A stretch of DNA of 64,000 bases from an uncultured Gemmatimonadales bacterium (GTDB lineage: Bacteria; Gemmatimonadota; Gemmatimonadetes; Gemmatimonadales; JACORV01), in assembly GCA_964550365.1 (NCBI GenBank), contig CAZJZC010000001.1:12863-76862 (forward strand). The letters are read 5' to 3'. This document shows, piece after piece, positions 17,642 to 64,000 of the stretch; position 1 is the stretch's first letter, and every line of letters begins with the position of its first letter. The notes below the pieces were generated by a model, which worked only from the letters and a program-made list of their open reading frames with translations, was not told the DNA's origin and ran no database searches. The position numbers and the translations under genes are program-made.

Positions 17642-18445
17642 TCAGTTCCTGATGAGCGCGACCAGGCCGGCGATCGTGAAGGGGATGGTCAGCAGGATGT
17701 TGAGCGTCGAGACGAACTGGTACGGATTGCGGACCGCCCGCGCCGGCACCACGAATCGGTCGCCGGCCTGGATGCTCATCGCGTCGAGCGTCCGCCCTTC
17801 GGTCACGGCCCGTTGCAGGTCGGCCCCGGTGTAGATCCGCTCGAGCCCGCGCTCGATGCGGAACTGGTCGAGCTCGGCATCGACCGCCAGGCCGCCCGCG
17901 ATCTGCAGCACCTCGTTCACCGGCACGTCCACCGGGACGGTGTAGAAGCCCTGCCGCGCCACGGCGCCGATCACCGCGACGCGGATGAGCGCCTGCGCCC
18001 GGACCCGCGGCTCCCGGATGAACTGCGCCAGCCGCTGGGTCAGGAAGTCGTTCAGCTCGACCCGCAGCACGCCGCCCAGCGGGATGGCGCCGACGGTCGG
18101 GAGCACCACCTCGCGCTGGGCCTGCACCGTGAAGGTGTCGGTCAGCGAGGTCTCGCCCTCGACCCGCAGCATGATGCGGTCGCCCACCTGGAAATCGCCC
18201 TCGCTCAGACGGCGGCGGACCAGGTTGGCCTGGGCCCGCGCCTGGGTCCGGATCTGGCTGGAATAGACCGAGGAGTTCGACGCCGTCTCCAGCTGGACCA
18301 GCAGGTCCTGCAGCGCCTGGCGCGTCGCGCGCACCTGGCTGAGCTCGGCGCCGGGGATCTGGGCCGCGGCCGCACCGGCCGCGCCGAACGCCAGCGCGGA
18401 CGCCACGAACACCAGTCGCCACGATCGGGGGAGCACGGCCTTCAT
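17642..18445 (-). CDS. Periplasmic polysaccharide export protein (Wza/EpsE-like, Poly_export + SLBB)
   Basis: Trimmed to ATG 18445 (MKAVLPRSW..., signal AAGAAAAQ). Export-family block LSEGDFQVGDRIMLRV and an SLBB-like C-terminal part. Its stop is only 3 nt from the convergent potD stop. Confidence 0.83.
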   Translation of the reverse strand: MKAVLPRSWRLVFVASALAFGAAGAAAAQIPGAELSQVRATRQALQDLLVQLETASNSSVYSSQIRTQARAQANLVRRRLSEGDFQVGDRIMLRVEGETSLTDTFTVQAQREVVLPTVGAIPLGGVLRVELNDFLTQRLAQFIREPRVRAQALIRVAVIGAVARQGFYTVPVDVPVNEVLQIAGGLAVDAELDQFRIERGLERIYTGADLQRAVTEGRTLDAMSIQAGDRFVVPARAVRNPYQFVSTLNILLTIPFTIAGLVALIRN

Positions 18446-18602
18446 GGGAGGGAAGTCTATGACGCCCCGGAGCCCCGCGCCACCCGGCGCGGGCCGGTGT
18501 GGGCGGTGGCGGTCGGAGGTGGGGGGCTCACCGGGACGGCGCGACCTGGGACGCAACCGCCCGCGATGAGGACCGCACCCACCTCAGACCATGGCGTGTT
18601 CG

Positions 18603-18818
18603 TTATGCTCCGCGCCGCAGCAGGATGGGACCTCCGACCAGCCCGAAACGCGCGAACTCACCCAGCTTGCGCGTGGCACTGCCCGCCGGCTGACCCGTCA
18701 GGGCCCGGCCGCACTGCCCGCACTCCTCGTCGGCTGCATCGCGCATCGGCCACATGGAACCGCGGCCGACACGCCGTCGATCCACCGTCCGCCCCGTGGC
18801 GCATTCCTCGCACAGCAT
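18603..18818 (-). CDS. Candidate small zinc-ribbon protein (71 aa), unannotated type
   Basis: ORF MLCEEC...(26 aa)...CGQCG has two CxxC pairs. GAGGTGAGGGGG lies 7-18 nt upstream of the ATG. By my count 55 of 70 third codon positions are G/C. It lies 157 nt upstream of the Wza-like gene on the same strand. Confidence 0.4.
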   Translation of the reverse strand: MLCEECATGRTVDRRRVGRGSMWPMRDAADEECGQCGRALTGQPAGSATRKLGEFARFGLVGGPILLRRGA

Positions 18819-19168
18819 AGACCTGCCCCCTCACCTCGCGCTCACCTTCACAACCACCGGGACGACACGATACAAGTTCGGGGCCACGACTCGGGGCAAC
18901 CGTCCAAGCATTCGATTGCACAACGACTTGGCCGCCCGTCCAGGATCGGTCCCGGCCGCCGTTTCCGTTGCGCCGCCGCGTCAGACTCGACCGTCGCGGC
19001 TGGGGTTTTGTCGCATTGCTGTTACAGTGAAGACCGGCGGTGAATCGTTAACATGTTGCTGTTGAAAGGTTTACACATGTTGAGAGCGTTCGCATGGGTT
19101 CTGCGGTGGTTTGAGCGCACCGCAGACCCGCCGGCAGCGCCTGGGAAGCTCCGCCGGAGGCTACACGC

Positions 19169-20143
19169 ATGGGTATCCGCGGCGACGACAGCCCTTTGAG
19201 GACCTCCATGGCCGAGCCGGGCCGCAGCCATCCGCCTCTCGTCGTGATCGCGAACAGCCAGGAGTGGCATACGCGATCGCTCGAGAGCATCCTCGGCCCG
19301 CACGGGTTCGCCGTGCTGCGCGCCTATACCGGCCGTCAGGCCCTCGAGCGCGTCCTCAGTGCCCAGCCCGACATCGTCATCCTCGACACCGACCTGCCCG
19401 ACATCGACGGCCTCGAAGTCTGCCGTCAGCTGCGCTCCGACGCCCGCGTGAGCGGCAGCACGCCGATCCTGATCACCAGCCCCGGGCACCCGAGCCGGCA
19501 CAAGCGGCTCGAGGCCCTGCGCGCGGGCGCCTGGGATTTCCTCGGCCCGACGCTCGACGGCGAGGAGCTGCCGCTCAGGCTCGACGCCTACGTGCGGGCG
19601 AAGTTCGACGCCGATCGGGCCCGCGAGGAGAGCCTGCTCGATCAGCTGACCGGCCTCTACAACATCCGCGGCCTGGCGCGGCGGGCCCGCGAGCTCGGCT
19701 CGCAGGCGTTCCGTCACCGCGAGCCGTTCGCCTGCGTGGTGTTCGCGCCGATGCTGGACGGGAGCTGGATGGCCGACGACGCCGCCTCGGAGTCGGCGCT
19801 GAACGCGGCCGTGGAGCAGCTGGCGAAGGCCCTGCGGGAGACCGGGCGGGTGTCCGACGCGATCGGGCGGCTCGGGCCGACGGAGTTCGCCATCGTGGCG
19901 CAGGGCACCGACCGCGAAGGCGCGGTGCGGCTGGCCGAGCGCCTGCAGCGCTCGCTCCAGGCCATGCTGGCCGATACCGAGCAGCGGTTCCGGATGTGCG
20001 CCGGGTACGATGCGGTGGACGATTATCACGAAGCGCCGATCGAGCCGTCGGACATGCTGGTGCGCGCCACGATGGCGATGCGCCTGTCGCGGTCCGACAG
20101 CGCCGGGAGCTGGATCCGGCCGTTCGAGGCCCGGGTCAACTGA
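19169..20143 (+). CDS. Atypical response-regulator receiver fused to a degenerate GGDEF domain (GPTEF) with retained RxxD I-site
   Basis: 324 aa with GGAGG 8 nt upstream of ATG 19169 (alternative ATG 19208). The REC domain lacks the acidic DD pair (VVIANSQEW) and the conserved Lys (GAWDFLGPT) but keeps the Asp in IVILDTDLPDIDG. The GGDEF region reads GRVSDAIGRLGPTEFAIV, against the canonical RxxD-xxx-RxGG(D/E)EF. Confidence 0.85.
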   Translation: MGIRGDDSPLRTSMAEPGRSHPPLVVIANSQEWHTRSLESILGPHGFAVLRAYTGRQALERVLSAQPDIVILDTDLPDIDGLEVCRQLRSDARVSGSTPILITSPGHPSRHKRLEALRAGAWDFLGPTLDGEELPLRLDAYVRAKFDADRAREESLLDQLTGLYNIRGLARRARELGSQAFRHREPFACVVFAPMLDGSWMADDAASESALNAAVEQLAKALRETGRVSDAIGRLGPTEFAIVAQGTDREGAVRLAERLQRSLQAMLADTEQRFRMCAGYDAVDDYHEAPIEPSDMLVRATMAMRLSRSDSAGSWIRPFEARVN

Positions 20144-20155: not shown

Positions 20156-22570
20156 CTAGCTGCTCCCCGCGATGAGCCGACCCGCGCCGGTGGCGGTCCC
20201 GGCCGCCTGGACCTCGTCGTCGGCGGCATACCCCGGCAGGTAGCTGTAGTACTTGTAGATCCCCTCCGGCTTCACGTCGTTCAGCACCGCGCCCAGCACC
20301 CGGATCGGCAGACGGTCGAGGTCGCCCAGCTTGGCGCCGGTCAGTTCCTTGTTGGTCACGCCGGTCCGCAGCACCAGCAGCAGGTTCCCCGTCAGTGATC
20401 CCAGCACCAGCGGATCGACGCCCGCGCCCAGCGGCGCCGAGTCGACGATGATGACGCCGTACTGCGACCGCAGGCTGATGAGCAGCTGGCTCATGGCCGG
20501 CGAGGCCAGGAGCTCCGGGCCGCCCGCCCGCCGCGTGCCGCAGCCGATGAAGTCGACCGACGGCAGGCTGGTGTGCTGGATGACCTGCTCGCGCTCGGCG
20601 TGGCCGCCCAGGTAGTCGATGAGCCCCGGCTTGCGGTTCGCCTTGAGGACCCGGTGCAGGGTGCCGCGCCGGATGTCGCCGTCGATGAGCAGGGTGCGGT
20701 GGCCGGCGTCGGCGAACGACAGTGCCAGGTTGCTGGCCAGGAAGGACTTCCCGTCGCCGCTGCCGGGACTGGTGATGGTGACGACCAGCGGCCCGGCCGA
20801 ACCGTGGGCGGTCACGATGCGCAGTCGCACCGACCGCAGTGCCTCGACCACCTGCGCCGAGGCCTCGTCCCGACCCGACCCCGCGTTCAGCCGCGGGATC
20901 GCCCCCAGGATGTCGAGGCCGAGCTCCTCGGTCACCTGGTCGGGGTAGCGCAGGCGGCGGTCGAACCGGTCGAGCAGCAGCGCCAGCGCGATGCCGAGGG
21001 CCAGCGAGCCGGCCATGCTGCCCAGCGCGACCAGCGGCTTGATGTTCTTGGTCGGCCGGTCGGGGACCACCGCCGGGTCGAGGATCCGGACGTCCGGGAT
21101 GCTGCTGGCCTCGGCCAGCCGGGCCTCGCTGTAGCGGGCCTGGAGGTTGGTATACAGCTGGTTGGCGATGGTGACGTCGCGCGAGAGCCGCGCCTCCTCG
21201 ATGGCGCGCGTCGGGATCTCCCGCAGGTCGCGCGAGGCGACGTTGATGCGCTCGTTGAGGAACGACTCGCGGGTGCGCATGTCGTCGAGCAGCGACCGCA
21301 TCATGGCCGGGATGCCCTGGCGCTGCAGCCCCCGGATCTCGGACAGCTGCCGCTCGACCTGCGGGTTGTCGTCGGTATAGCGCAGGCGGAGGATCCGCAG
21401 GGCCGCCTGTTTCGCCGTCAGGTCCGACAGGGCCGCGCGCAGCTCCGAGTTGCTCTGGATCGACGGGATCGCCTCGAGCACCACCGCCGAGATGCCGCTG
21501 TCCGGCGGCTGCTGCAGCACGCGCTGGATCGCCTCGCGGTCACGGCGCAGCTGGTCGCTCTCGCTGCGCATGTTGAAGTAGCTCTGCAGCGCCGGCGTCT
21601 GGGTCATCTGCAGTCCCGACACCACCGGCGGCGCCTGCTCCTCGCGCGGCAGGGTGATGGTGTTGACCTTGAAGGTCTCGAGCGCGTTCTCGGCGCGGCG
21701 CAGTTCGACGTACGACGCCTGCAGCTGGGCATCGAGGATGCGCGTCAGCTCCGTCAGCTTCTCCCGCTTCAGGTTGCGCGCCACCGACACGAACTGTTCG
21801 GCGATCGAGTTGAGGGTCGCCGCCGTCAGCGCCGGCACCCGGCCGTCCAGCGTGAGCTTGAGGAAGTTCCCGTCGCGCGGCGGAAGCACGGCGCCGAGGC
21901 GGGCGTTCAGGCCCACCGCCGCCTGCCGCGGCACGGTCACGCTGAAGCCGACGACGCGCCCGGGACGGAACGCCGTGGCCGGCGGCAGCCAGCGGAAGCC
22001 CGCGGGCACCCCGACCGAGTCACCCGCCGCACCGCGCTGCACCTCGCCCGCCACGTTGTGGAGCAGCACGAACGAGCGGCCGTCGGCACTGGCCCGGAAC
22101 TCGTAGCGGCCCGGGCGGAACCGGTCCATCAGCTCGAAGCTGCTGAACAGCGGGGCATCCAGCCCCGGGTTCTCGATCGACAGGTACAGCCGCTGGGCCT
22201 TCACAACCGAGTCCAGCACCGTGAACGAGCGGAGCAGGTCCAGCCAGTTGGTGTTCTGCAGCAGCTGCCCCTGCTGGATCGGGCCCTGGGTGCCCGCCAT
22301 CGGTTCGACCCAGATGGTGGCCTGCGCCTGGTAGACCGGATCGAGGATGCGGGCCACGGTCACGCCGCCGGCCGCGCCGACGACCGTCAGGAAGGCGACC
22401 AGCCACTTGTAGCGCCCGACCGCCGCCAGGTACCGGCCGAAGTCCGGCCCGCGCTCCTCGGCGGGCAGCGGCGGCGGCGCATTGTAGCCCGATGGCACCG
22501 CGGCGGGGTCGGCCCGCACGATGGCCGTGCCGTCCGAACCCTCGAGACCCGCTGGCAGATTGCTCGACAT
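20156..22570 (-). CDS. Polysaccharide co-polymerase / tyrosine autokinase (Wzc/GumC-type BY-kinase)
   Basis: The 1595-aa track ORF was trimmed to ATG 22570 (804 aa). Two TM segments flank a long coiled periplasmic domain. Walker A SPGSGDGKS, A' LLIDGDIRR, Walker B IIVDSAP, and a Tyr-rich tail YKYYSYLPGY. Confidence 0.92.
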   Translation of the reverse strand: MSSNLPAGLEGSDGTAIVRADPAAVPSGYNAPPPLPAEERGPDFGRYLAAVGRYKWLVAFLTVVGAAGGVTVARILDPVYQAQATIWVEPMAGTQGPIQQGQLLQNTNWLDLLRSFTVLDSVVKAQRLYLSIENPGLDAPLFSSFELMDRFRPGRYEFRASADGRSFVLLHNVAGEVQRGAAGDSVGVPAGFRWLPPATAFRPGRVVGFSVTVPRQAAVGLNARLGAVLPPRDGNFLKLTLDGRVPALTAATLNSIAEQFVSVARNLKREKLTELTRILDAQLQASYVELRRAENALETFKVNTITLPREEQAPPVVSGLQMTQTPALQSYFNMRSESDQLRRDREAIQRVLQQPPDSGISAVVLEAIPSIQSNSELRAALSDLTAKQAALRILRLRYTDDNPQVERQLSEIRGLQRQGIPAMMRSLLDDMRTRESFLNERINVASRDLREIPTRAIEEARLSRDVTIANQLYTNLQARYSEARLAEASSIPDVRILDPAVVPDRPTKNIKPLVALGSMAGSLALGIALALLLDRFDRRLRYPDQVTEELGLDILGAIPRLNAGSGRDEASAQVVEALRSVRLRIVTAHGSAGPLVVTITSPGSGDGKSFLASNLALSFADAGHRTLLIDGDIRRGTLHRVLKANRKPGLIDYLGGHAEREQVIQHTSLPSVDFIGCGTRRAGGPELLASPAMSQLLISLRSQYGVIIVDSAPLGAGVDPLVLGSLTGNLLLVLRTGVTNKELTGAKLGDLDRLPIRVLGAVLNDVKPEGIYKYYSYLPGYAADDEVQAAGTATGAGRLIAGSS

Positions 22571-22683: not shown

Positions 22684-22741
22684 CTGTTGCAGTAACGCAA
22701 CCTTTGGGCCATGCCGCAGGACTGTTGCGCCGGAACAACGT
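22684..22741. promoter_or_regulatory. Two tandem copies of a CTGTTG-N8-CAAC.. inverted repeat (candidate transcription-factor sites)
   Basis: 22684-22703 reads CTGTTGcagtaacgCAACCT and 22722-22741 reads CTGTTGcgccggaaCAACGT, with identical 8-nt spacing. Both lie in the divergent region between the BY-kinase and the sigma-54 activator. The same motif occurs at 25525 and 60874. Confidence 0.4.
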
Positions 22742-22858: not shown

Positions 22859-24340
22859 ATGACCGCGATCCCGGCTTCGAACACCCTGGTGATCAGCGCC
22901 GAGGCCAAGGCCAGCCTCGCCGTGCTGATCATCGACGATGAGCGCACCTTGCGCGAGAGCTGCAAGAGCGTCCTGGAGGCCGACGGCTTCCGGGTCGAGG
23001 TGTGCGCCCGCGGCGCCGACGCCCAGCAGCTCATCCAGCGGCGGCGCTACGACATCATCCTGACCGACCTGTACATGTCGGACGTCACCGGGATGGACCT
23101 GCTCAAGGCCGCCCTCGAGGCGGCGCCCGAGACCCTGGTGATCGTGATGACCGGCAACCCGAGCGTGGCGTCGAACGTCGAAGCGTTGCGCGCGGGCGCC
23201 TGGGACTACATCCCGAAACCGTTCTCGGCGACCCATCTCCAGATCCTGCTGGGCCGCGCCGCCCATGCGGTGATGGTGGCGCGGGAATCCTCGGCCAGTC
23301 ACGTCGGCGACGACGACTCGCCGGTGCAGCTGCTGGGCACCTCGCCGGAGTTCCGGCGGGCCCTCGAGCTCGCCCGCAAGGTGGCCGTGACCGACGCCTC
23401 GGTGTTCATCACCGGCGAGAGCGGGACCGGCAAGGAGATGATCGCGCAGTTCATCCACGCCCACAGCCGCCGCAGTTCGCGGCCCATCGTGGCGGTCAAC
23501 TGCGCCGCCCTGCCCGAGGCCCTGCTCGAGTCCGAGATGTTCGGGCACATGAAGGGCGCCTTCACCGGCGCCGTGAAGGACAAGGCCGGCCTGCTGGAGG
23601 CCGCCAACGGCGGCACCCTGTTCCTCGACGAGCTGATCGAGATGCCCAAGCCGGTCCAGGCCAAGCTGCTGCGCGTGATCCAGGACGGCGTGGTCCGGCG
23701 GCTCGGCAGTGCGCAGACCAGCGCGGTGGTCAACGTGCGGTTCATCGCGGCATCGAATCGCGACCCCGACGAGTCCGTGCGTGACGGCGCCCTCCGTGAG
23801 GACCTGTACTACCGCCTGCGCGTGGTGCCGATCCACCTGCCGCCCCTGCGCGAGCGGCCCGAGGACATCACCCTGCTGGCGAACCACTTCCTGACGCTGT
23901 ACTGGCGCCGGCACCGGGGCGCCAATGCTCCTCTGCCCACGCTGTCCGACGGCGCCCTGAGCGCGCTGGCGGCGCACGGCTGGCCGGGCAACGTGCGCGA
24001 ACTGCAGAACGCCATCGAGCACACGGTGGTCCTGCTCGAACCCGGGCAGGAGATCCAGCAGAAGGACATCCCGTTCCCCGGGACCGACCGGCCGGCGACC
24101 GGCGGCGCGGACGTCACGACCCCGATGTGGAACGACGAGGAGCTGGAGCAGAGCTACCACGCGGCGCGCGAGCGGGTGATCGCGACCTTCGAGCGCCGCT
24201 ACCTCACCTGGCTGGTCAACCGCGCCGGCGGGAACATGTCCAAGGCCGCGCGGCTGGCCGGCGTCGACCGGACCACGCTCTATCGGCTGATGGAGCGGCA
24301 CGGACTGCAGCGTGAAACCATCACCGTCGCGTCGGAGTAG
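22859..24340 (+). CDS. Sigma-54-dependent response regulator (NtrC/PrsR-like bacterial enhancer-binding protein)
   Basis: Trimmed to ATG 22859 (493 aa). Canonical REC (IIDDE, IILTDLYM, VMTG, IPKPF). AAA+ with GESGTGKE, the GAFTGA sigma-54 contact loop, GGTLFLDEL and WPGNVRELQN. C-terminal Fis-type HTH NMSKAARLAGVDRTTLYRLMERHGL. Confidence 0.93.
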   Translation: MTAIPASNTLVISAEAKASLAVLIIDDERTLRESCKSVLEADGFRVEVCARGADAQQLIQRRRYDIILTDLYMSDVTGMDLLKAALEAAPETLVIVMTGNPSVASNVEALRAGAWDYIPKPFSATHLQILLGRAAHAVMVARESSASHVGDDDSPVQLLGTSPEFRRALELARKVAVTDASVFITGESGTGKEMIAQFIHAHSRRSSRPIVAVNCAALPEALLESEMFGHMKGAFTGAVKDKAGLLEAANGGTLFLDELIEMPKPVQAKLLRVIQDGVVRRLGSAQTSAVVNVRFIAASNRDPDESVRDGALREDLYYRLRVVPIHLPPLRERPEDITLLANHFLTLYWRRHRGANAPLPTLSDGALSALAAHGWPGNVRELQNAIEHTVVLLEPGQEIQQKDIPFPGTDRPATGGADVTTPMWNDEELEQSYHAARERVIATFERRYLTWLVNRAGGNMSKAARLAGVDRTTLYRLMERHGLQRETITVASE

Positions 24341-24341
24341 C

Positions 24342-58158: not shown

Positions 58159-59321
58159 GCGAGCCCGTTGTCCACGGACGGCCGGACCGGGTCGGCCCAG
58201 ACATCCCAGCGGCGGCGCACCGCGTTGGCGGCCGCGACGAGAAGCGCCCCGTGGAGCATGAGTGCGCTCCTGAGGACGCCGTGCACCCGCCGGAGGATCC
58301 CGGGGCTGCCACTGGGCGGCAGCCACCACACCAGCCCGGCCGCCACGACGCCCGCGAGCGCCAGCGGCAACGCCCCCGGCCCCGCCACGACGAGCACGCC
58401 GGCCGTGACGGCCACGCTGGCCAGCGGCGTCGCCAGGCGCAGCACCTTGTGCGAGACGAACTGCCACCAGATGGGGTTGCGCCACGGCACCAGCGCCCAG
58501 GGCATGAGCGCCATCAGCTGGAAGTTCCCCGTGAGCGTCCGCACCTTGCGCATGAACTCCGTGTCGTCGTCACCCACCGGCACGTCATGGACCAGCGCCT
58601 CGCGCGCGAAGCGCACCCGCCGCCCGGCGCGGACCACGCTGAGAGCGATCCAGACGTCGTCGAGGATCAGTCCCGCCGGCATCGCCTGCCAGGACTCGCG
58701 CCGGATGGCGTACAGCGCGCCGGTGACACCCGGCACGCTGTGCCACGATGATTCGGCGGCGCGCAGTTCGCGTTCGCGGCGCCAGTACCAGTCGAGCAGC
58801 CCCCCGCCCGCCGGTCGCGCCAGCTCGAGGCAGCCGGAGACGGCCCCCACGTCGTCCGACGCCAGCTCGGCGACCAGACGCTCGATCGCGGTCGCCGTGA
58901 CGCGCTGCCTCACGTCGGTGAGGACCAGCACCTCGCCCCGCGCCTGCGCGACGCCGGCATTCAGGGCCGACGCCTTGCCGCCCCACGACGCCAGTTCCAC
59001 CACCGTCAGGCGGTCCGGTCCAAGCGCCTGGAGGGCCTCATGCGCGATGGGGTCGGGGCCGTCGAGCGCCACCACGACGTCCAGCCGCAGGGTCGAGGGA
59101 AGCGCCAGCAGGGCGGAGACCTTGTCGGCGATCGCGCGCCCGCTCCGGCGCGCCGCGATCACGACGGTCACGGCCGCGGCGGCGGGCCGATCGGCCGGCC
59201 GCGGGGGCCTGGCCGGCAGCCGCGCCACGATCCAGGGGTAGACCAGGTACGCATAGCCCAGCAGCGCCGCGCCGCCGGCGATGAGCAGCCAGCCCAGGGC
59301 CGGGCCCGGAAGGATCAGCAT
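58155..59321 (-). CDS. Membrane glycosyltransferase family 2
   Basis: 388 aa. N-terminal TM, then VTVVIAARR, VVVALDGPD, GKASALNAGVAQARGEVLVLTDVRQ, and C-terminal TM helices. Confidence 0.84.
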   Translation of the reverse strand: MLILPGPALGWLLIAGGAALLGYAYLVYPWIVARLPARPPRPADRPAAAAVTVVIAARRSGRAIADKVSALLALPSTLRLDVVVALDGPDPIAHEALQALGPDRLTVVELASWGGKASALNAGVAQARGEVLVLTDVRQRVTATAIERLVAELASDDVGAVSGCLELARPAGGGLLDWYWRRERELRAAESSWHSVPGVTGALYAIRRESWQAMPAGLILDDVWIALSVVRAGRRVRFAREALVHDVPVGDDDTEFMRKVRTLTGNFQLMALMPWALVPWRNPIWWQFVSHKVLRLATPLASVAVTAGVLVVAGPGALPLALAGVVAAGLVWWLPPSGSPGILRRVHGVLRSALMLHGALLVAAANAVRRRWDVWADPVRPSVDNGLA

Positions 59322-59446: not shown

Positions 59447-59470
59447 AGGGCCCGGCACCCACCGGGCCCT
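59447..59470 (-). terminator. Rho-independent terminator candidate downstream of the PEP-CTERM gene
   Basis: Perfect 9-bp stem AGGGCCCGG / CCGGGCCCT with a 6-nt loop, 26 nt after the stop. On the minus strand it is followed by TTGTGC, which together with the terminal stem T gives a short U-tract. Confidence 0.5.
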
Positions 59471-59495: not shown

Positions 59496-60239
59496 CTAGA
59501 ACTGGTCGATCTGCTCGTCCCGGTTCCGACGCCGCACCAGCCCGACGCCGCCCAGGAACACCAGCCCGGTACCCAGCAGTGTCATCGTCACCGGCTCCGG
59601 CGTCACCATGGCGCACGGCACCCGGCCGTCGCCGCCGAAGCTGTTGTCGCTGCCGCACTCGGCGTCCCCGCCGGCGACGAAGCCGTCGGTCAGCCAGGCG
59701 ACCTCGGCCTGGCTCGCGGACCAGTCGTTGCTGGTCTCGAACGAGAACACCACCCAGCCGGACGCATCGCCGCAGGTCGTGAAGTACGACGACGGGTTCC
59801 GGGTCGACCGCTGGCATCCTTCGATGCCGCCCTCGCCGTTCAGCGGCACGCCGGCCGCGACCTCGATGATGCCGCCCAGGCCGTCGGGCTGACGCAGGGT
59901 CCAGTTCGACGCGCTGCTGCCCGTGACGCCGACAGAACCGGTCGTCGAGACGGAGAGGTTGCCGGCGCCGACGATCGCCGGCGTGATGAGGCCGATGCGG
60001 CGGATGATCGAGCCACCCGTGTTGTCGCCCTGCCACCCGTAGCCCTGCAGGTTGCGGACCCGGATGATGACGTTGGTCCCGCCTCCTGACCGGGCCGACG
60101 TCTGCACCGACAGGCTGGCGCAGGCGCGGATCGCGCCGGGGCTGCAGTAGTTCAGGAAGTCCCTGGTGTCGGCGCGCAACTGGCTGGCTGCGGCAAGCAC
60201 GGCCACGCTGGCACCCACCACTACTCCACTGACTCTCAT
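59496..60239 (-). CDS. PEP-CTERM sorting-domain protein (exosortase cargo), 247 aa
   Basis: Trimmed to ATG 60239. Signal peptide VVGASVAVLAAASQLRA. C-terminal tripartite tag VTPEP-VTMTLLGTGLVFLGGVGLV-RRRNR. The mature part is Gly/Ser/Thr-rich with six Cys. Confidence 0.88.
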   Translation of the reverse strand: MRVSGVVVGASVAVLAAASQLRADTRDFLNYCSPGAIRACASLSVQTSARSGGGTNVIIRVRNLQGYGWQGDNTGGSIIRRIGLITPAIVGAGNLSVSTTGSVGVTGSSASNWTLRQPDGLGGIIEVAAGVPLNGEGGIEGCQRSTRNPSSYFTTCGDASGWVVFSFETSNDWSASQAEVAWLTDGFVAGGDAECGSDNSFGGDGRVPCAMVTPEPVTMTLLGTGLVFLGGVGLVRRRNRDEQIDQF

Positions 60240-60712
60240 GCGTTGCTCCCTTTTCGGATGGCGCCTTGACGCCGATGGATCGCGATCCCGAAACCCACGT
60301 AGAACACGATGTACGACAGACAGAACAGTCCGGTCTTGATGATCGCCCTGATCAGGGCCGGCTTCTGAGCCGGGTTCATGGCGCGGAGCGCCAGCGGCAC
60401 GTCCAGCGCGAAGATCACCAGGGCCCCGATCACCGCCGCCGCCACCAGCCAGGCGAACACGGTCGCGATGCGCGCCGGGATCCGCCAACCCATCTCGATC
60501 GCACCCGCGGCGAACAGACCGAACCCGAGAGTGCCGAGCGGCAGGCCATCGACCGCCGCGCTGATCGAACCGAACTCCCACTCCGGGCTGCCGTAGCCCC
60601 AAGGGATGAACACCATCGTCACGTCGGTCCAGCCGACCACCGCGGCGATCAGACCCAGACCGGCGACCAGGCCCCAACCGGGACCGGCACCATACCCCTG
60701 ACGTTCGGTCAT
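60236..60712 (-). CDS. Hypothetical 4-TM membrane protein (158 aa) translationally coupled to the PEP-CTERM gene
   Basis: Trimmed to ATG 60712. The four hydrophobic helices are GLVAGLGLIAAVVGW, LGTLGFGLFAAGAI, IATVFAWLVAAAVIGALVIFAL and GLFCLSYIVFYVGFGIAI. Its TGA overlaps the next ATG (ATGA). Confidence 0.68.
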   Translation of the reverse strand: MTERQGYGAGPGWGLVAGLGLIAAVVGWTDVTMVFIPWGYGSPEWEFGSISAAVDGLPLGTLGFGLFAAGAIEMGWRIPARIATVFAWLVAAAVIGALVIFALDVPLALRAMNPAQKPALIRAIIKTGLFCLSYIVFYVGFGIAIHRRQGAIRKGSNA

Positions 60713-60948: not shown

Positions 60949-62163
60949 CTAGCCGGCGCCCCGGCGGCGCACCACGCGGGCCGCCACGACCCCGATGGCC
61001 ACGGCCGCCCACTCCTCGGTCCTCGTTGGCGGCTGGCCGGTCCACAGCGGCACCAGCACGGCGGCAGCCACCAGCACCCCGACCGCCGGTCCCAGCCAGA
61101 CGCGTGAAACGTAATAGGCGCACGGGAAGGCGAAGGCCGCCATCCAGAGCAGGCCGAGCAGCCGCTGGGCCCAGCCCGGGATACTGCGCGGATACCAGAC
61201 CAGCGTCCAGCCGTCGCCGGCCGTGTAGCCGACACCACACCGTACCGCCGAATCGACGGCAACGCACGCGCCGCGTTCGCCGCGGGTGATGGCGAGGTCG
61301 AAGGTGTCGCCGCGGGCGTACGGCGCCAGGGCCCCGGCGAGCCGGCGTTCGGGACCGTCGAGTCCCAGCTCGGCCGCGAAGGTGCGCTGGCGGATGATGA
61401 GGTCGCTGCCGACGGCCCCCACCAGCAGGACCTCGTGCTGGAAGTGGTCGTAGATGCTGAAGATGTCGGCCAGCTGGTCCGGGGGTGGCGCGGCGACCAC
61501 CGTCAGCCTCAGCGGCACCTGCGCGCGGAGCAGTCGGCCGACCGTGGGCGAGTGCCAGACGAGTCCGGGCGGCAGGGGCCGGTCTGCCAGCGTCGCCGCC
61601 AGGACCCGACCCCGGTAGACCCCGAGATGCGCCAGGTTCGGCGTCCACTGGCTGAAGAAGGCGGCGTCGGACGGCCAGGGTACGAAGAGCGCCGGCGGCC
61701 CGGCGTAGGCCAGGGCGGCGGCCGCGACCGCCGCGGCCGCGAGTCCGGGTGCCCAGCGGCCATCGGCGGCGCGCCAGGCCGGCCAGCTGCGCGCGATCAG
61801 CACGCCGACCGCCGCGCCCACCGCGTTCGACATGAGGTCGATGGGCGAGGGGTCGCGGCCCGGGATCACCAGCTGGGCGACCTCCACCGCGGCCGAGAGC
61901 GCCGCGGCGGCGAGCACGACGCGCCGGTCGTACCACCCGAGCCCGCTCAGCGCCGCGCCCAGGGGCAGGAACAGCAGCACGTTGCGCACGATGTCGGCCA
62001 CCGCGCTCGGGCCGAACAGGCCGATGACCGGAGCGACGTCGCCGGTCGGCGGGAGTGTGGCCAGCAGGATCACGGCGACCGCGGCCGCGATGCCGGCCGC
62101 CCGGGAGCGGGTCATCGGACGGGCCGGGAGGACGGACGGAGGAGAGGGGATCGGCGTGGTCAT
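60949..62163 (-). CDS. VanZ-like domain membrane protein with long C-terminal extension
   Basis: Trimmed to ATG 62163 (alternative ATG 62115). The VanZ-like N-terminal block is DIVRNVLLFLPLGAAL...EVAQLVIPGRDPSPIDLMSNAVGAAVG. A ~200-aa non-hydrophobic domain follows, then two C-terminal TM helices. Confidence 0.72.
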   Translation of the reverse strand: MTTPIPSPPSVLPARPMTRSRAAGIAAAVAVILLATLPPTGDVAPVIGLFGPSAVADIVRNVLLFLPLGAALSGLGWYDRRVVLAAAALSAAVEVAQLVIPGRDPSPIDLMSNAVGAAVGVLIARSWPAWRAADGRWAPGLAAAAVAAAALAYAGPPALFVPWPSDAAFFSQWTPNLAHLGVYRGRVLAATLADRPLPPGLVWHSPTVGRLLRAQVPLRLTVVAAPPPDQLADIFSIYDHFQHEVLLVGAVGSDLIIRQRTFAAELGLDGPERRLAGALAPYARGDTFDLAITRGERGACVAVDSAVRCGVGYTAGDGWTLVWYPRSIPGWAQRLLGLLWMAAFAFPCAYYVSRVWLGPAVGVLVAAAVLVPLWTGQPPTRTEEWAAVAIGVVAARVVRRRGAG

Positions 62164-62235
62164 CCGGCTCCAGCATCGAGGACTCCGGCTCCGGCGCTGG
62201 CCACCGTGACCGTTCGCCCCTACTGTAGGAGCGGG

Positions 62236-63297
62236 ATGAAGAGTATCCGATCGCCCGGCGAAGGCACAGGTTCGCCCCCCGCCCTGCACTGCCCCCGCTG
62301 CCGGGAACCCCTCCGACTCGACGGCATCAGCGAGCCCGCGTGGCGGTGCGCCGCCTGCGACCGGACCTACCCGGTCATCTGCGGCATCCCCGACCTCAGG
62401 GTGGCGCCCGACCCGTACATCGGCATCGACGCCGACCGAGCCAAGGGCCGCGCGATCGCCGAACGCGCCGCCGACCTGGACTTCGCCGGCCTGGTCGCCT
62501 GGTACTACGCCCACACCGACGTGGTACCGGCCCACCACGCCCGCGCCTACACCCGCGGGCTCCTGGCCGCCGAAGCCCGCGCCGCGGCGAGCCTGGCGGC
62601 CTGGGACGCGCACCTGGTCTCCGGCGGCGGCGCGGCCCTCGGCGGCGACCTGCTGGAGGTCGGCTGCGGCACGGGACCCCTGCTGGTCGCGACGGCGCCG
62701 CGCGTACGCAGCCTGGTCGGTGTCGACGTGGCGTTCCGGTGGCTGGTCGTGGCGCACAAGCGGCTGGCCGAAGGCGGCGTCGACACCATGCTGGTGTGCG
62801 CCAACGCCGAGGCACTGCCGTTCGCCGGCGCGGCGTTCGACGCCGTGGCCATGGAATCCGTCCTGGAGGTCGTTCAGGACCAGGCGGGTGCCCTGGCGGA
62901 GGCGGCGCGCGTCGCGCGACCCGGCGCGCCGCTGGTGATCGCCACGCCGAACCGCTTCAGCCTGGGCCCGGACCCGCACGTGGGGACCTGGGGGGCCGGC
63001 CTGCTGCCCGAGCGCGTCGTCGCCGCGATCGCGCGCCGCCAGGGAGCCATCCCGCCGCGGCGGCGCCTTCACACCTCGCGGTCGCTGGCGCGTGTCCTCC
63101 GGCGTGCCGGCTTCGCGCGCCCGCGGGTCTTCCTGCCGGACGTCCCGGCGGCACACCGGCGCCGACTGCCGCCCATGCTGCGCGCGGCGGCCGCGGTGTA
63201 CACGGCGCTGGCGTTCGTGCCGCTGACCCGCTGGCTGCTGCTGGTCGTGGGGCCGCTGCTGCTCGCCGTCGCGGAGCGTGAACGGGCGGCGCCATGA
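62236..63297 (+). CDS. Class I SAM-dependent methyltransferase with N-terminal Trm112-like zinc ribbon and C-terminal TM helix
   Basis: Trimmed to ATG 62236 (AGGAG 6 nt upstream). CPRC...(18 aa)...CAAC followed by GIPDL. Motif I LLEVGCGTGPL. C-terminal hydrophobic LTRWLLLVVGPLLLAV. Confidence 0.8.
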   Translation: MKSIRSPGEGTGSPPALHCPRCREPLRLDGISEPAWRCAACDRTYPVICGIPDLRVAPDPYIGIDADRAKGRAIAERAADLDFAGLVAWYYAHTDVVPAHHARAYTRGLLAAEARAAASLAAWDAHLVSGGGAALGGDLLEVGCGTGPLLVATAPRVRSLVGVDVAFRWLVVAHKRLAEGGVDTMLVCANAEALPFAGAAFDAVAMESVLEVVQDQAGALAEAARVARPGAPLVIATPNRFSLGPDPHVGTWGAGLLPERVVAAIARRQGAIPPRRRLHTSRSLARVLRRAGFARPRVFLPDVPAAHRRRLPPMLRAAAAVYTALAFVPLTRWLLLVVGPLLLAVAERERAAP

Positions 63298-64000
63298 ACA
63301 AGGTCGCCCTGTTCCTGAGCACGGCGCTGGTGCTCGGCGAGAGCGCCCGCGACCGCGCCGACATCCTCTGGCGCCTGTCGAAGAACGTCCGCGTCCGTCT
63401 GGGCCTGGCGCGCTACCATCCGGAGGTCGTGCACCTGGTGCGCACGCGCTGGGGCCCGGTGCACCTGCGCGACAACTTCGGCGACGTCACCAACCTGCCC
63501 AGGGTATGGCTGCAGAACGAGTATCGGCTGGAGCGGCTCGAGGGCGAGGGGGTCATCCTCGACGTGGGCGCCAACATCGGGCTGTTCGCCGCGTGGGCCG
63601 CGGCGCACAACCCCGGCCGCGCCATCCACTGCTTCGAGCCGCTGGCGGCCAACCGGCGGATGATCGCGCTCAACTGCCCGTCGGCCGTCATCGCGCCCGG
63701 CGGCCTCGGGCGACAGGCCGGCACGGTCACGCTTCGGGTGGACGCCCACGCGATCATGGCCAGCACGGTCGATACCAGCTGGCCCACGCAGCCGCAGGCC
63801 TTCGAGGTGGTGCCGCTGGACGAGTACGCCCGCGCCACCGGCATCGGGGCGGTCGCCTTCCTCAAGCTCGACACCGAGGGCATGGAACTGGAGATCCTGG
63901 ACGGCGCCCGCGAGACCCTGCGGCGCGTCGCGCGGGTCGCGATGGAAACGCATGGCGAGGATCGGCACCGCGGCGCCCTCCAGCGGCTCACGGCCGCAGG
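63294..64000 (+). CDS. FkbM-family methyltransferase, 3'-truncated by the window edge
   Basis: ATG 63294 overlaps the previous stop (ATGA). The frame is open to the window end and so is not in the track. VILDVGANIGLFAAWAA and FLKLDTEGMELEIL are FkbM signatures. Confidence 0.8.
   Translation, partial: MNKVALFLSTALVLGESARDRADILWRLSKNVRVRLGLARYHPEVVHLVRTRWGPVHLRDNFGDVTNLPRVWLQNEYRLERLEGEGVILDVGANIGLFAAWAAAHNPGRAIHCFEPLAANRRMIALNCPSAVIAPGGLGRQAGTVTLRVDAHAIMASTVDTSWPTQPQAFEVVPLDEYARATGIGAVAFLKLDTEGMELEILDGARETLRRVARVAMETHGEDRHRGALQRLTAA

What the first reader, a model, noticed from the sequence alone, without database searches (positions are those of the whole stretch)
17642..64000. ~46-kb exosortase/PEP-CTERM-type exopolysaccharide island with a non-canonical parts list
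Seen in sequence: an exosortase with Cys/Arg/His motif regions (FVTEACSGLRSL, NAVRIFL, HYSEGW). A separate EpsI protein (HSPRNCLPGGGW). A Bac_transf priming enzyme, a Wza-like exporter, and a Wzc-like BY-kinase with a Tyr tail. Wzx and Wzy-like proteins, at least 11 GTs, two deacetylases and an AsnB amidotransferase. One protein ends in PEP-TM-RRR. Established knowledge: PEP-CTERM/exosortase systems are linked to EPS loci and often carry PrsK/PrsR/PrsT regulators. Differences here: the kinase is soluble, unlike the polytopic PrsK. No TPR lipoprotein (PrsT-like) lies in the island. A GT-C enzyme sits in the core operon. Only a single cargo gene is present, about 32 kb from the exosortase. No BY-kinase phosphatase is present. 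The island abuts potD with only 3 nt between convergent stops (17638/17642), so the core/accessory junction is unusually abrupt.
Basis: partly seen in the sequence, partly recalled or inferred. Interest (0 to 1): 0.6.

Follow-up and report, generated by a model that had tools for sequence, protein, structure and literature searches.

The report
Gemmatimonadales exosortase exopolysaccharide gene cluster
This is a soil-bacterium (Gemmatimonadales) gene cluster that builds and exports a surface polysaccharide and carries an exosortase that probably processes one dedicated PEP-CTERM surface protein; the layout is normal for that lineage rather than an odd imported island, although the exosortase belongs to a subtype that no curated model covers.

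Summary

The exosortase passes only the generic exosortase model. It fails XrtA (156 vs 208 bits) and XrtD (176 vs 400), as do four relatives, so neither refutation condition is met.

The "non-canonical" reading is mostly not supported. The source is a Gemmatimonadales MAG. In about 20 related loci the same core recurs: Wza, REC-GGDEF, Wzc, σ54 regulator, soluble kinase, priming transferase, exosortase, EpsI. PrsK/PrsT are proteobacterial features, and dispersed cargo genes are the norm (Haft 2006). The GT-C enzyme is not core. It belongs to a portable trio (GT-C, UGM-like flavoenzyme, membrane GT2; fused in some relatives) that also occurs in loci without an exosortase. Nothing marks an island.

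New points:
- The cargo belongs to a large unmodelled ~245-aa β-sandwich PEP-CTERM family, translationally coupled to an HpsJ-like membrane protein.
- A σ54-type promoter recurs upstream of wzc (14/18 loci).
- The conserved GGDEF protein has a degenerate active site and an intact I-site.

Verdict: lineage-typical variant of a known system; modest interest.

The parts
17642..18445 (-). Short Wza-like outer-membrane polysaccharide export protein. It has a signal peptide, Poly_export and one SLBB domain, and a C-terminal hydrophobic helix.
   Evidence: Pfam Poly_export 38.3/28 and SLBB 32.4/27. XrtA export model TIGR03027 scores only 29.9/180. TM scan. Conserved in relatives.
18603..18818 (-). 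Possible 71-aa CxxC...CxxC small protein with a C-terminal ...ARFGLxG motif. It is uncertain whether this is a real gene.
   Evidence: Called at the same position in L003 and L005. Alignment A1. The motif was found only in the window, L003 and L005. No family hit.
19244..20143 (+). REC-GGDEF protein with a degenerate active site (GPTEF instead of GG[D/E]EF) and an intact RxxD I-site. Probable c-di-GMP receptor.
   Evidence: TIGR00254 GGDEF 50.3/37.4. RVSDAIGRLGPTEF in the window; the same degenerate motif in 14 relatives. Part of the conserved core.
20156..22519 (-). Wzc-type PCP-2a co-polymerase fused to a BY-kinase, with a C-terminal Tyr cluster.
   Evidence: Wzz, GNVR and CbiA domains. TIGR01007 117.8/108. 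Two TM segments. Tail YKYYSYLPGY.
22696..22711 (-). σ54-type -24/-12 promoter-like site, TGGCCCAAAGGTTGCG, 177 nt upstream of the wzc start codon.
   Evidence: A matching YGGTAYC-N4-YTTGCR site points toward wzc in 14 of 18 distinct relatives, against 25% expected (P about 4e-6). Control regions are at background.
22859..24340 (+). σ54-dependent NtrC-family response regulator (REC, AAA+ and HTH domains).
   Evidence: PrsR model TIGR02915 375/502.6, which fails. AtoC 383 and NtrC 373 score equally well.
24393..25508 (+). Cytoplasmic histidine kinase with HisKA and HATPase_c domains. It has a conserved ~140-aa helical N-terminal domain of unknown type and no TM segment.
   Evidence: Pfam. Maximum 19-residue hydropathy is 1.25 in the window, L003 and L005.
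25683..26408 (+). Small monotopic polyprenyl-phosphate glycosyl-phosphotransferase (Bac_transf), the priming enzyme.
   Evidence: TIGR03025 258/295.6; XrtA-type TIGR03013 228.9/393.
26422..27285 (+). Exosortase of an unclassified subtype.
   Evidence: TIGR02602 151/105.6 passes. XrtA 156.2/208 and XrtD 175.8/400 fail. Four relatives behave the same way. Cys188, Arg233 and His254 are invariant.
27282..27941 (+). Separate EpsI protein. Its start overlaps the exosortase stop by 4 nt.
   Evidence: TIGR02914 107.6/42.8. Its best match is the C-terminal half of XrtD, 133.2 bits.
28015..29613 (+). GT-C-fold (PMT_2 / GT39-like) polytopic glycosyltransferase. Accessory, not part of the core.
   Evidence: Eight or more TM segments. 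Sub-threshold GT87 and PMT hits. Homologs carry PF13231 and one is named GT39. Fused to a g34-like GT2 in P0167. Present only in L012 among exosortase loci.
29690..30890 (+). A 103-aa GT2 N-terminal fragment (29690-30001) followed by a GT2 gene (30021-30890).
   Evidence: Pfam Glycos_transf_2 33.2/23.3 for the second gene. The fragment is 34% identical to the N-terminus of that gene.
30890..32380 (+). UDP-galactopyranose-mutase-like FAD enzyme (PRK07208 family).
   Evidence: NF005548 705/389. The nearest solved relatives are UGMs, E 6e-15. 64-69% identical copies sit next to GT-C and GT2 genes in L089 and L090.
32387..36525 (+). Two GT4 glycosyltransferases, an NAD-dependent sugar epimerase/dehydratase, and a polysaccharide deacetylase.
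   Evidence: NCBIfam hits.
36522..37649 (+). Membrane-anchored GT2, the partner of the GT-C enzyme.
   Evidence: NCBIfam. C-terminal TM segments. 46% identical to the N-terminal half of the GT2+GT-C fusion protein P0167. PDB relatives include PcManGT, ArnC, DPMS and GtrB.
37639..38310 (+). Two paralogous small 2-TM membrane proteins (120 and 98 aa). Candidate lipid-linked-sugar flippase pair; this is speculative.
   Evidence: 28% identical, E 3e-9. holin_4 scores 42.9/70, below cutoff. TM scan.
38307..40101 (.). Gfo/Idh/MocA oxidoreductase (+) and a methyltransferase-like protein (-).
40278..43824 (+). Wzx (MOP) flippase, a GT4 and a hexapeptide O-acetyltransferase.
   Evidence: NF007773 220/273. 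Pfam GT4. Acetyltransferase models.
44041..46185 (+). Lipoprotein with two Ig-like repeats, a poly-Gly linker and a right-handed β-helix. Probable EPS-modifying or EPS-cleaving enzyme.
   Evidence: Beta_helix 46/25.9. Lipobox LLLAFVFMAAC. Lowest GC of the locus.
46195..59321 (-). Nine-gene minus-strand block. By coordinate: deacetylase, GT4-like, heparinase II/III-like, AsnB amidotransferase, ADH+Gfo fusion oxidoreductase, GT4, GT4 (stp2-like), Wzy/O-antigen-ligase-like, GT2.
   Evidence: XrtA-system models all score below cutoff: TIGR03108 478/817, TIGR03088 221/409, TIGR03097 80.7/188.
59448..59469 (-). GC-rich hairpin (GGGCCCGG-tgggtg-CCGGGCCC) followed by TTTGTG, just after the cargo gene. 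Possible terminator.
   Evidence: Read directly from the sequence. The consensus scan did not call it.
59496..60239 (-). PEP-CTERM cargo protein, 247 aa. It has a signal peptide, a β-sandwich domain with six conserved Cys, and the tail VTPEPVTM...RRR.
   Evidence: TIGR02595 18.8/16. Family alignment with invariant P-E-P and RR. 524 cluster representatives at E<=1e-10. AF2 pLDDT 78.5. No PDB match.
60236..60712 (-). HpsJ-like 158-aa membrane protein. Its stop overlaps the cargo start codon (ATGA).
   Evidence: NF038305 25/60, below cutoff. 35-40% identical homologs carry PF28006 and sit directly upstream of cargo homologs in L007 and L008. Also adjacent to a cargo homolog in L059.
60949..64000 (.). 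VanZ-family membrane protein (-), a class I methyltransferase (+) and an FkbM methyltransferase (+, cut off by the window end).
   Evidence: VanZ 47.9/30.1. Methyltransferase models. A VanZ homolog lies near the cargo pair in L008.

Best explanation
This is the lineage-typical exopolysaccharide locus of a Gemmatimonadales bacterium, not an anomalous island. It has three layers.

(1) A vertically conserved core:
- a short Wza-like exporter;
- a REC-GGDEF protein with a dead active site and an intact I-site;
- Wzc (a co-polymerase/tyrosine-kinase fusion);
- a σ54-dependent response regulator with a cytoplasmic histidine kinase;
- a small Bac_transf priming enzyme;
- an exosortase;
- a separate EpsI.

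(2) A strain-variable glycan toolbox:
- 6 GT4 and 3 GT2 enzymes, plus Wzx and Wzy;
- acetyl- and methyltransferases and two deacetylases;
- an AsnB amidotransferase and several oxidoreductases;
- a β-helix lipoprotein;
- a portable trio: GT-C, a UGM-like flavoenzyme and a membrane GT2.

(3) A bicistronic cargo unit: an HpsJ-like membrane protein plus a 247-aa secreted β-sandwich protein that ends in a strongly conserved PEP-CTERM signal.

Inferred mechanism:
- The priming enzyme and the cytoplasmic glycosyltransferases build a modified repeat unit on undecaprenyl phosphate.
- Wzx flips it and Wzy polymerises it.
- Wzc and the Wza-like protein control chain length and export.
- The GT-C trio adds a periplasmic decoration, possibly a furanose, from a lipid-linked donor.
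- The kinase and the σ54 regulator switch on at least wzc through a -24/-12 promoter.
- The degenerate GGDEF protein couples the system to c-di-GMP.
- The exosortase, working with EpsI, cleaves the cargo at its PEP motif after Sec export and releases or attaches it to the matrix. There it probably helps retain the polysaccharide on the cell, as shown for PepA in Aquincola.

What is shown here: gene content, family assignments, conservation of the core and of the cargo pair, motif enrichment, and the fusion link. What is inferred: all biochemical steps, the cleavage, and the regulation.
For: - Family assignments.
- Taxon: the relatives are Gemmatimonadales and Gemmatimonadota MAGs. PGAP gives a relative only the generic exosortase name.
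- Core synteny holds in L003 and L005 and in 23 loci of 9 kb or more.
- The exosortase catalytic triad is invariant.
- The window protein and four clade members all fail XrtA and XrtD but pass the generic model.
- The cargo family has invariant PEP, six invariant Cys and an RRR cluster, and 524 cluster representatives at E<=1e-10.
- The HpsJ-like partner is conserved next to the cargo, with an ATGA start/stop overlap.
- In a relative, genes beside the cargo pass two XrtA-system equivalog models: TIGR03006 322.8/276.2 and TIGR03019 282.3/260.4.
- The σ54 motif lies toward wzc in 14 of 18 loci against 25% expected. Controls upstream of the priming gene (8/43), GGDEF (2/19) and wza (7/19) are near background.
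- The degenerate GGDEF motif with an intact RxxD is conserved in 14 relatives.
- The GT2+GT-C fusion and the recurring trio.
- Literature: Haft 2006 for the PEP-CTERM/EpsH concept and the proteobacterial restriction of PrsK/R/T. Xia 2023 for a PEP-CTERM protein that increases bound polymer.
Against: - No experiment exists for any member of this clade.
- Only 64 kb of the genome is visible. The total number of PEP-CTERM proteins, the presence of rpoN, and any second exosortase are all unknown.
- The PEP-CTERM HMM score of the window protein alone is marginal (18.8 vs 16). Pfam's PEP-CTERM model did not report it at E<=0.01.
- The window's own σ54-like site (TGGCCC...) departs from the clade consensus (GGTAYC). 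The related loci are not phylogenetically independent, so the P value is optimistic.
- No σ54 motif was found upstream of the exosortase operon, and none is clearly conserved upstream of the cargo pair.
- The cargo fold gave no informative structural match.
- The 46 kb may not serve a single polymer.
Confidence: 0.8

Rival explanations
1. First reader's view. The region is an accessory 'island' joined abruptly to the core genome, carrying an exosortase system whose parts list is truly aberrant: a soluble kinase, no PrsT, a GT-C enzyme in the core operon, a lone distant cargo gene and no phosphatase.
For: - Each of these features is present or absent as stated.
- GC drops from about 0.75 to 0.70-0.72 across 18-28 kb.
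Against: - The low-GC stretch is exactly the core that is conserved, in order, across about 20 relatives at 45-79% protein identity.
- There is no tRNA and there are no flanking repeats. No integrase-like product appeared among the called genes that I scanned.
- The soluble kinase and the σ54 regulator are part of the core in relatives.
- PrsK/R/T are proteobacterial, and cargo genes are usually dispersed.
- The GT-C gene is absent from nearly all related exosortase loci.
- Convergent genes 3 nt apart are ordinary in compact genomes.
Confidence: 0.07
2. It is simply a divergent XrtA system. The exosortase would be the true ortholog of XrtA, and the sub-threshold scores would reflect phylogenetic distance only.
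For: - Many parts have XrtA-system models among their top hits: TIGR03013, TIGR03027, TIGR03007/03018, TIGR03108, TIGR03097 and TIGR03088.
- In relative L007, the genes beside the cargo pass the XrtA-system equivalog models TIGR03006 and TIGR03019.
- The cargo carries a classical PEP motif.
Against: - XrtA model TIGR03109 scores 142-159 against a cutoff of 208 in all five members tested.
- The N-terminal half of XrtD scores higher in every one of them.
- No PrsK/R/T equivalogs are present.
- Every XrtA-system accessory model fails in the window itself.
Confidence: 0.2
3. It is a split version of XrtD, the VPLPA-CTERM-specific exosortase that normally carries a fused EpsI domain.
For: Both the exosortase (175.8 bits, model positions 3-244) and EpsI (133.2 bits, model positions 285-482) have XrtD as their best subtype hit.
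Against: - The summed score of about 309 bits is still below the 400-bit cutoff.
- The two parts are separate genes throughout the clade.
- The only cargo carries TPEP, not VPLPA. The motif scan, which allowed VPLPA-like tails, found no other candidate.
Confidence: 0.04
4. The 46 kb is a mosaic of independent glycan modules that merely lie side by side. The exosortase core and Wzx/Wzy genes would make one polymer. The GT-C, UGM-like and GT2 block (28-38 kb) would serve a different target, such as protein O-glycosylation or another cell-surface glycan.
For: - The trio occurs in ABC-transporter-type glycan loci without an exosortase.
- Everything downstream of EpsI differs between relatives.
Against: - The genes from the priming enzyme to the Gfo oxidoreductase (25683-39404) are co-directional. 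Gaps range from -11 to +76 nt, which suggests one transcript.
- In the closest relative the GT-C gene also follows EpsI.
- This rival refines the best explanation rather than replacing it.
Confidence: 0.3

Closest known systems
XrtA / PEP-CTERM system of Proteobacteria (Methylobacillus eps locus; Zoogloea and Aquincola floc-formation loci; Haft et al. 2006)
   Same: - An exosortase with the Cys/Arg/His triad sits beside EpsI inside a large Wzx/Wzy-type EPS locus.
- The locus also has a priming transferase, a short OPX exporter, a chain-length/tyrosine-kinase component, an AsnB-type amidotransferase, an O-antigen-ligase-like protein and stp2-like GT4 enzymes.
- The cargo has a classical PEP-TM-Arg tail.
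- A σ54-dependent regulator and a kinase lie next to the locus.
   Different: - The exosortase fails the XrtA model.
- The chain-length and kinase parts are fused into one Wzc.
- The kinase is cytoplasmic and is not PrsK. The regulator is not an equivalog of PrsR. No PrsT is present.
- A REC-degenerate-GGDEF protein is part of the core.
- The cargo is co-transcribed with an HpsJ-like protein rather than standing alone behind a σ54 box.
- The σ54-like site found here is at wzc.
XrtD (VPLPA-CTERM-specific exosortase, TIGR04152)
   Same: It is the best-scoring subtype model for both the exosortase and EpsI.
   Different: - XrtD is a single fused protein; here the two parts are separate genes.
- The scores are below the cutoff.
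- The sorting motif is PEP, not VPLPA.
Cyanoexosortase systems with HpsJ-like partners (NCBIfam NF050013 / NF038305; hormogonium polysaccharide loci)
   Same: A small HpsJ-family membrane protein is associated with an exosortase/EPS system.
   Different: - The match to HpsJ is sub-threshold (25 vs 60 bits).
- The exosortase is not a cyanoexosortase.
- Here the HpsJ-like gene is translationally coupled to the cargo gene.
Lipid-linked periplasmic glycosylation modules (ArnC/ArnE-F/ArnT; GtrA/GtrB/GtrC; mycobacterial Glf and DPA pathway with GT-C arabinofuranosyl/galactofuranosyl transferases)
   Same: A membrane GT2, a GT-C-fold transferase and small membrane proteins occur together, with a UGM-like flavoenzyme suggesting a furanose donor. 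In some relatives the GT2 and GT-C are fused.
   Different: - No component passes an equivalog model for any of these systems.
- The sugar, the acceptor and the flippase role of the two small proteins are all unknown.

Membership tests
Exosortase (EpsH) family, TIGR02602 / PF09721 | Score at or above the curated family cutoff | tested here: met
   151 bits against 105.55. The signature model TIGR04178 scores 58.8 against 23. Homologs carry PF09721.
Exosortase (EpsH) family, TIGR02602 / PF09721 | Conserved Cys, Arg and His catalytic residues in a polytopic membrane protein | tested here: met
   C188, R233 and H254 are invariant in 25 sequences. Six or more TM segments.
XrtA (exosortase A, TIGR03109) | Score at or above the 208-bit cutoff | tested here: not met
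   156.2 bits for the window protein. 141.7-159.4 bits for four relatives.
XrtA (exosortase A, TIGR03109) | Companion XrtA-system equivalogs in the locus (TIGR03027, 03007, 03018, 03013, 03108, 03097, 03088, 03006, 03019) | tested here: not met
   All score below cutoff in the window: 29.9/180, 112/279, 105/231, 229/393, 478/817, 80.7/188 and 221/409. TIGR03006 and TIGR03019 have no hit in the window, but both pass in relative L007.
XrtD (TIGR04152) | Single protein with a fused EpsI domain that scores at least 400 bits, plus VPLPA-CTERM cargo | tested here: not met
   Here there are two genes, scoring 175.8 and 133.2 bits. The cargo motif is TPEP.
EpsI (TIGR02914) | Score at or above the cutoff, and adjacent to an exosortase | tested here: met
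   107.6 against 42.8. The gene overlaps the exosortase stop by 4 nt.
PEP-CTERM sorting domain (TIGR02595) | C-terminal PEP motif, TM helix and basic cluster, scoring at or above the cutoff | tested here: met
   18.8 against 16, which is marginal. P-E-P, the hydrophobic stretch and RR are invariant across 27 family members. The protein has an N-terminal signal peptide. Pfam's model did not report it at E<=0.01.
PrsR (TIGR02915) | Equivalog score of at least 502.6 bits | tested here: not met
   375.1 bits, no better than AtoC (382.9) or NtrC (373.5).
PrsK (TIGR02916) | Polytopic transmembrane histidine kinase | tested here: not met
   No TM segment in the window protein or in two relatives. Only HisKA and HATPase_c domains were found. 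PrsK is not among the 25 listed hits.
PrsT (TIGR02917) | ~900-aa TPR lipoprotein scoring at least 312 bits | tested here: not met
   No TPR protein among the 39 locus genes. The only TPR protein in the window (6419-7648, 409 aa) scores 32.4 bits.
PCP-2a / BY-kinase (Wzc-like) | Wzz and GNVR periplasmic domains between two TM segments, a P-loop kinase domain, and a C-terminal Tyr cluster | tested here: met
   (TIGR01007 117.8/108).
Genomic island (horizontally acquired) | tRNA or integrase nearby, flanking repeats, and patchy distribution among relatives | tested here: not met
   No tRNA. No meaningful repeats. No integrase-like product among the called genes that I scanned. The core is conserved across the clade.
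GT-C fold glycosyltransferase (PMT_2 / GT39-like) | Match to a GT-C family model, and polytopic topology | tested here: inconclusive
   The protein's own hits are below cutoff (GT87 20.6/25, PMT 17.4/22.7). It has eight or more TM segments. Homologs at 32-42% identity carry PF13231 and one is named GT39. No PDB sequence match.
HpsJ family (NF038305 / PF28006) | Score at or above the cutoff | tested here: inconclusive
   25 against 60 for the window protein. Its 35-40% identical homologs carry precomputed PF28006 hits.

The most novel reading that the evidence does not exclude
The Gemmatimonadales locus could define a distinct, so far unnamed exosortase subtype that works as a near one-to-one system. 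The exosortase, with a separate EpsI, would be dedicated to a single conserved ~245-aa disulfide-rich β-sandwich PEP-CTERM family. That cargo is always paired with, and translationally coupled to, an HpsJ-like membrane protein.

The subtype would have its own regulatory triad: a cytoplasmic kinase, a σ54 regulator acting at wzc, and a c-di-GMP-sensing REC-degenerate-GGDEF protein.

In this strain it would additionally be joined to a GT2/UGM-like/GT-C module that decorates the polymer, or the cargo itself, with a furanose from a lipid-linked donor.
Probability: 0.3. Interest if true: 0.5.

Novelty: new variant of a known kind. Interest (0 to 1): 0.3.

Why it matters
Gemmatimonadota are abundant soil bacteria with almost no genetics, and their matrix biology is unknown. 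This work defines three things that curated resources could turn into new subtype, cargo and partner models:
- a conserved eight-gene exosortase-EPS core;
- a specific candidate substrate family;
- an HpsJ-like partner.

It also gives concrete deletion targets in cultured Gemmatimonas. The exosortase mechanism (cleavage site and acceptor) has not been biochemically defined, to my knowledge. A system with one conserved, well-folded cargo is a better model for studying it than genomes with dozens of PEP-CTERM proteins.

For the genome scan itself, the main lesson is calibration. Deviations from the proteobacterial XrtA/PrsKRT template are the norm in other phyla and should not be scored as anomalies.

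Tried and rejected
- A look-up of the exact source contig through the 100% identical exosortase P0001 found nothing on record. The rest of the 104-kb contig and the genome-wide PEP-CTERM count could therefore not be examined.
- The σ54 consensus is not enriched across the whole window (15 matches vs 18 expected).
- σ54-like sites upstream of the priming/exosortase operon (8/43), GGDEF (2/19) and wza (7/19) are at or near background.
- The regions upstream of the HpsJ-cargo pair share a conserved block but no convincing common -24/-12 element.
- tRNA, Rfam, σ70 promoter and terminator scans around the cargo and repeat searches returned no tRNA, RNA-family, promoter or terminator match and only low-identity GC-rich repeats.
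- PDB sequence searches for the GT-C protein and the exosortase profile found nothing useful.
- The small CxxC ORF next to wza is not broadly conserved; its motif occurs in only three distinct loci. I do not count it as core.
- The VanZ protein is not homologous to the 334-aa gene that precedes HpsJ in relatives.
- The GT2 downstream of the GT-C gene (30021-30890) is not the fusion partner. The partner is the GT2 at 36522-37649.
- Literature searches found no paper linking exosortase or PEP-CTERM systems to Gemmatimonadota beyond one transcriptome mention. Nothing was found on PRK07208.

Full report
**Gene map.** The window is about 75% GC and every frame is full of long ORFs. I therefore called genes with a codon log-odds model trained on obvious genes, followed by a greedy non-overlap filter. 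Between 17642 and the window end there are 39 genes. To the left lies a potABCD operon.

**Observation check.**
- The exosortase (26422-27285) carries the quoted Cys, Arg and His motifs. The next gene, overlapping by 4 nt, is an EpsI with HSPRNCLPGGGW.
- A small Bac_transf priming enzyme, a short Wza-like protein (Poly_export and SLBB) and a 787-aa Wzc with the tail YKYYSYLPGY are confirmed.
- So are a MOP flippase, a Wzy_C protein, two deacetylases and an AsnB.
- I count six GT4, three GT2 and one GT-C-like enzyme, plus the priming transferase and a 103-aa GT2 fragment.
- One protein (59496-60239, minus strand) ends ...VTPEPVTMTLLGTGLVFLGGVGLVRRRNRDEQIDQF. A six-frame scan finds no other such tail in the 64 kb.
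- The kinase has no TM segment.
- No TPR protein and no BY-kinase phosphatase was detected among the locus genes.
- The stop codons of potD and the Wza-like gene are 3 nt apart.

**Subtype tests.** The exosortase passes only the generic family model (151 vs 105.6 bits). It fails XrtA (156.2 vs 208) and every other subtype. Its best hit, and EpsI's best hit, are the two halves of XrtD (175.8 and 133.2 bits vs a 400-bit cutoff). Four relatives give the same pattern. The PEP-CTERM model is passed, narrowly (18.8 vs 16).

The σ54 regulator is not a PrsR equivalog (375 vs 502.6; AtoC and NtrC score the same). The kinase is a generic HisKA/HATPase_c protein. The only TPR protein in the window lies 10 kb to the left among housekeeping genes and scores 32 vs 312 bits on PrsT.

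**Who carries it, and is the layout unusual?** The closest genomic relatives are Gemmatimonadales and Gemmatimonadota MAGs. The protein search returned more than 3,600 exosortase relatives. The top 120 are all 63-73% identical apart from the 100% self-match P0001, and PGAP gives one of them only the generic family name.

Gene contexts from two long contigs show the same order and strands as the window: Wza-like(-), REC-GGDEF(+), Wzc(-), σ54 regulator(+), kinase(+), Bac_transf(+), exosortase(+), EpsI(+).

A metagenome scan gave 80 more loci. tblastn mapping of all window proteins onto the 23 loci of 9 kb or more shows the following:
- Where the retrieved sequence extends far enough, the loci carry this same core set.
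- Four loci have the regulatory block inverted.
- Five loci have Wza-Wzc placed directly before the priming gene.
- Everything after EpsI varies.
- potD is never the neighbour.

Together with the absence of tRNA and flanking repeats, and with no integrase-like product among the called genes that I scanned, the 'island' reading fails. The slightly lower-GC stretch (18-28 kb) is precisely the vertically conserved core.

Haft et al. 2006 state that PrsK, PrsR and PrsT share the phylogenetic profile of a proteobacterial cis-element. They also state that most PEP-CTERM genes are dispersed single-gene units (PMC1569441). A soluble kinase, no PrsT and a distant cargo gene are therefore what one expects outside Proteobacteria.

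**The cargo.**
- The gene starts at ATG 60239 and encodes a signal peptide (MRVSGVVVGASVAVLAAASQLRA|DT).
- Thirty homologs of about 245 aa share the signal peptide, six invariant cysteines and a nearly invariant tail, VTPEPVTMxLLGSGLxGxGGxGLxRRRK.
- A profile search of 1.84 billion cluster representatives finds 524 at E<=1e-10, nearly all full length.
- No Pfam or NCBIfam model covers the mature domain.
- AlphaFold predicts a confident all-β sandwich for residues 23-210 (pLDDT 78.5). It has no significant PDB neighbour.

The gene directly upstream encodes a 158-aa membrane protein whose stop overlaps the cargo start (ATGA). It matches HpsJ weakly. In two relatives a 35-40% identical HpsJ (PF28006) gene again sits directly upstream of cargo homologs. 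There the pair is followed by genes that pass the XrtA-system deacetylase and FemAB equivalog models. In a third relative the pair lies next to the REC-GGDEF gene of the core. Within 10 kb of the exosortase in the other long loci, no PEP-CTERM tail is found. A GC-rich hairpin follows the cargo gene.

**Regulation.**
- A σ54-type -24/-12 element (YGGTAYC-N4-YTTGCR) points toward wzc in 14 of 18 distinct wzc/regulator intergenic regions. The window's site is TGGCCCAAAGGTTGCG at 22696-22711.
- The background rate predicts 25% of such regions with a hit (binomial P about 4e-6; this is optimistic because the loci are related).
- The same scan upstream of the priming gene (8/43), GGDEF (2/19) and wza (7/19) stays near background.
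- The conserved REC-GGDEF protein has GPTEF in place of GG[D/E]EF. It keeps RxxD five residues upstream. The same degenerate active-site/intact I-site pattern is seen in 14 relatives. I infer a c-di-GMP receptor rather than a cyclase.

**The GT-C gene.**
- On its own it is below Pfam cutoffs. Its homologs carry PMT_2, and one is named GT39.
- Five homologs of about 900 aa are fusions. In P0167, residues 8-322 match the membrane GT2 at 36522-37649 (46% identity) and residues 334-899 match the GT-C protein (38% identity).
- In two other loci the GT-C gene, this GT2 and a 64-69% identical copy of the flavoenzyme at 30890-32380 are adjacent. Those loci are ABC-transporter-type glycan clusters with no exosortase.
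- The flavoenzyme's nearest solved relatives are UDP-galactopyranose mutases.
- Two paralogous 2-TM proteins follow the GT2.

The GT-C gene is therefore part of a portable periplasmic decoration module, possibly for a furanose. It is not part of the exosortase core. Among exosortase loci it follows EpsI only in the closest relative.

**How it most likely works.** The following is inferred from family knowledge.
1. The priming enzyme and the cytoplasmic GT4/GT2 enzymes assemble a repeat unit on undecaprenyl phosphate. The unit is modified by amidation, acetylation and deacetylation, methylation and oxidation.
2. Wzx flips the unit, the Wzy-like protein polymerises it, and Wzc with the Wza-like protein exports the polymer.
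3. The trio adds a side decoration in the periplasm.
4. The kinase and the σ54 regulator activate at least wzc, and c-di-GMP acts through the degenerate GGDEF protein.
5. The exosortase with EpsI removes the TM-RRR anchor of the β-sandwich cargo at the PEP motif. The cargo then joins the matrix. By analogy with PepA of Aquincola, it probably shifts polymer from released to cell-bound (PMC9850573).

**Comparison and novelty.** The system works like an XrtA-type system and shares distant homologs of many of its parts. It fails the XrtA, XrtD, PrsK, PrsR and PrsT membership tests. I found no paper describing exosortase systems in Gemmatimonadota. I rate it a new variant of a known kind: an unnamed, lineage-wide exosortase subtype with its own regulators and a dedicated cargo/HpsJ-like pair. 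A specialist would not be very surprised. The value lies in curation and in offering a simple model system. Interest 0.3.

Noticed in passing
window 19244-20143 (+): The conserved REC-GGDEF protein has a degenerate active site (RLGPTEF) and an intact RxxD I-site. The same pattern appears in 14 relatives, which suggests a c-di-GMP receptor rather than a cyclase.
   Followed up: partly
window 28015-29613, 30890-32380, 36522-37649; L089 8496-12682; L090 10001-14959: A GT-C (PMT_2-like) gene, a UGM-like flavoenzyme and a membrane GT2 form a recurring trio. The trio also occurs in ABC-transporter-type glycan loci without an exosortase. In about 900-aa relatives such as P0167, the GT2 and GT-C are fused.
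   Followed up: yes
window 37639-38001 and 38014-38310 (+): Two paralogous small 2-TM proteins (28% identity) lie directly after the membrane GT2. They match a 'holin_4' model weakly. They could be a heterodimeric flippase for a lipid-linked sugar, but no evidence was obtained.
   Followed up: partly
window 18446-19243, especially 18603-18818 (-): The spacer between wza and the GGDEF gene is unusually long (798 bp). It contains a possible 71-aa CxxC...CxxC ORF ending ...ARFGLxG. The ORF is called at the same place in two relatives, but the motif is absent from most others.
   Followed up: partly
window 29690-30001 (+): A 103-aa ORF is 34% identical to the N-terminus of the GT2 that follows it, and lies in a different frame. 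It is probably a remnant of a duplicated GT2, or a pseudogene.
   Followed up: partly
window 44041-46185 (+): A lipoprotein (lipobox FMAAC) with two Ig-like repeats, a run of glycines and a right-handed β-helix. It has the lowest GC of the locus (0.685). It may be an EPS lyase or epimerase.
   Followed up: partly
window 48470-54473 (-): A heparinase II/III-like protein with no hydrophobic N-terminal segment in the TM scan (no dedicated signal-peptide prediction was run), an AsnB amidotransferase, and a 706-aa fusion of a zinc-ADH domain with a Gfo/Idh/MocA domain form a tight block. The heparinase-like protein may therefore be cytoplasmic, so its role is unclear.
   Followed up: no
window 6419-7648 (+): A 409-aa TPR protein with an N-terminal hydrophobic segment lies 10 kb left of the locus. 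Its best NCBIfam hit is PrsT, but at 32 bits against a 312-bit cutoff, so it is not PrsT.
   Followed up: yes
L007 610-4643; L008 637-4670: In relatives the HpsJ-cargo pair is preceded by a ~1010-aa outer-membrane β-barrel protein (CarboxypepD_reg and OMP_b-brl_4 domains) and a ~333-aa protein of unknown family. Both are missing from the window, where a VanZ gene directly precedes the pair.
   Followed up: partly
L003 10209-14955 (-): In a relative, EpsI is followed by a fatty-acyl-AMP ligase, an acyl carrier protein and a 931-aa protein with no family hit. This suggests that some members of the clade acylate their polymer.
   Followed up: no
window 60713-60948 (-); L007 4644-4814; L008 4671-4845: The regions upstream of the HpsJ-like gene share a conserved block (TTGCAG-N-CAA-GTGCTTG). 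It may be a lineage-specific promoter or operator.
   Followed up: partly
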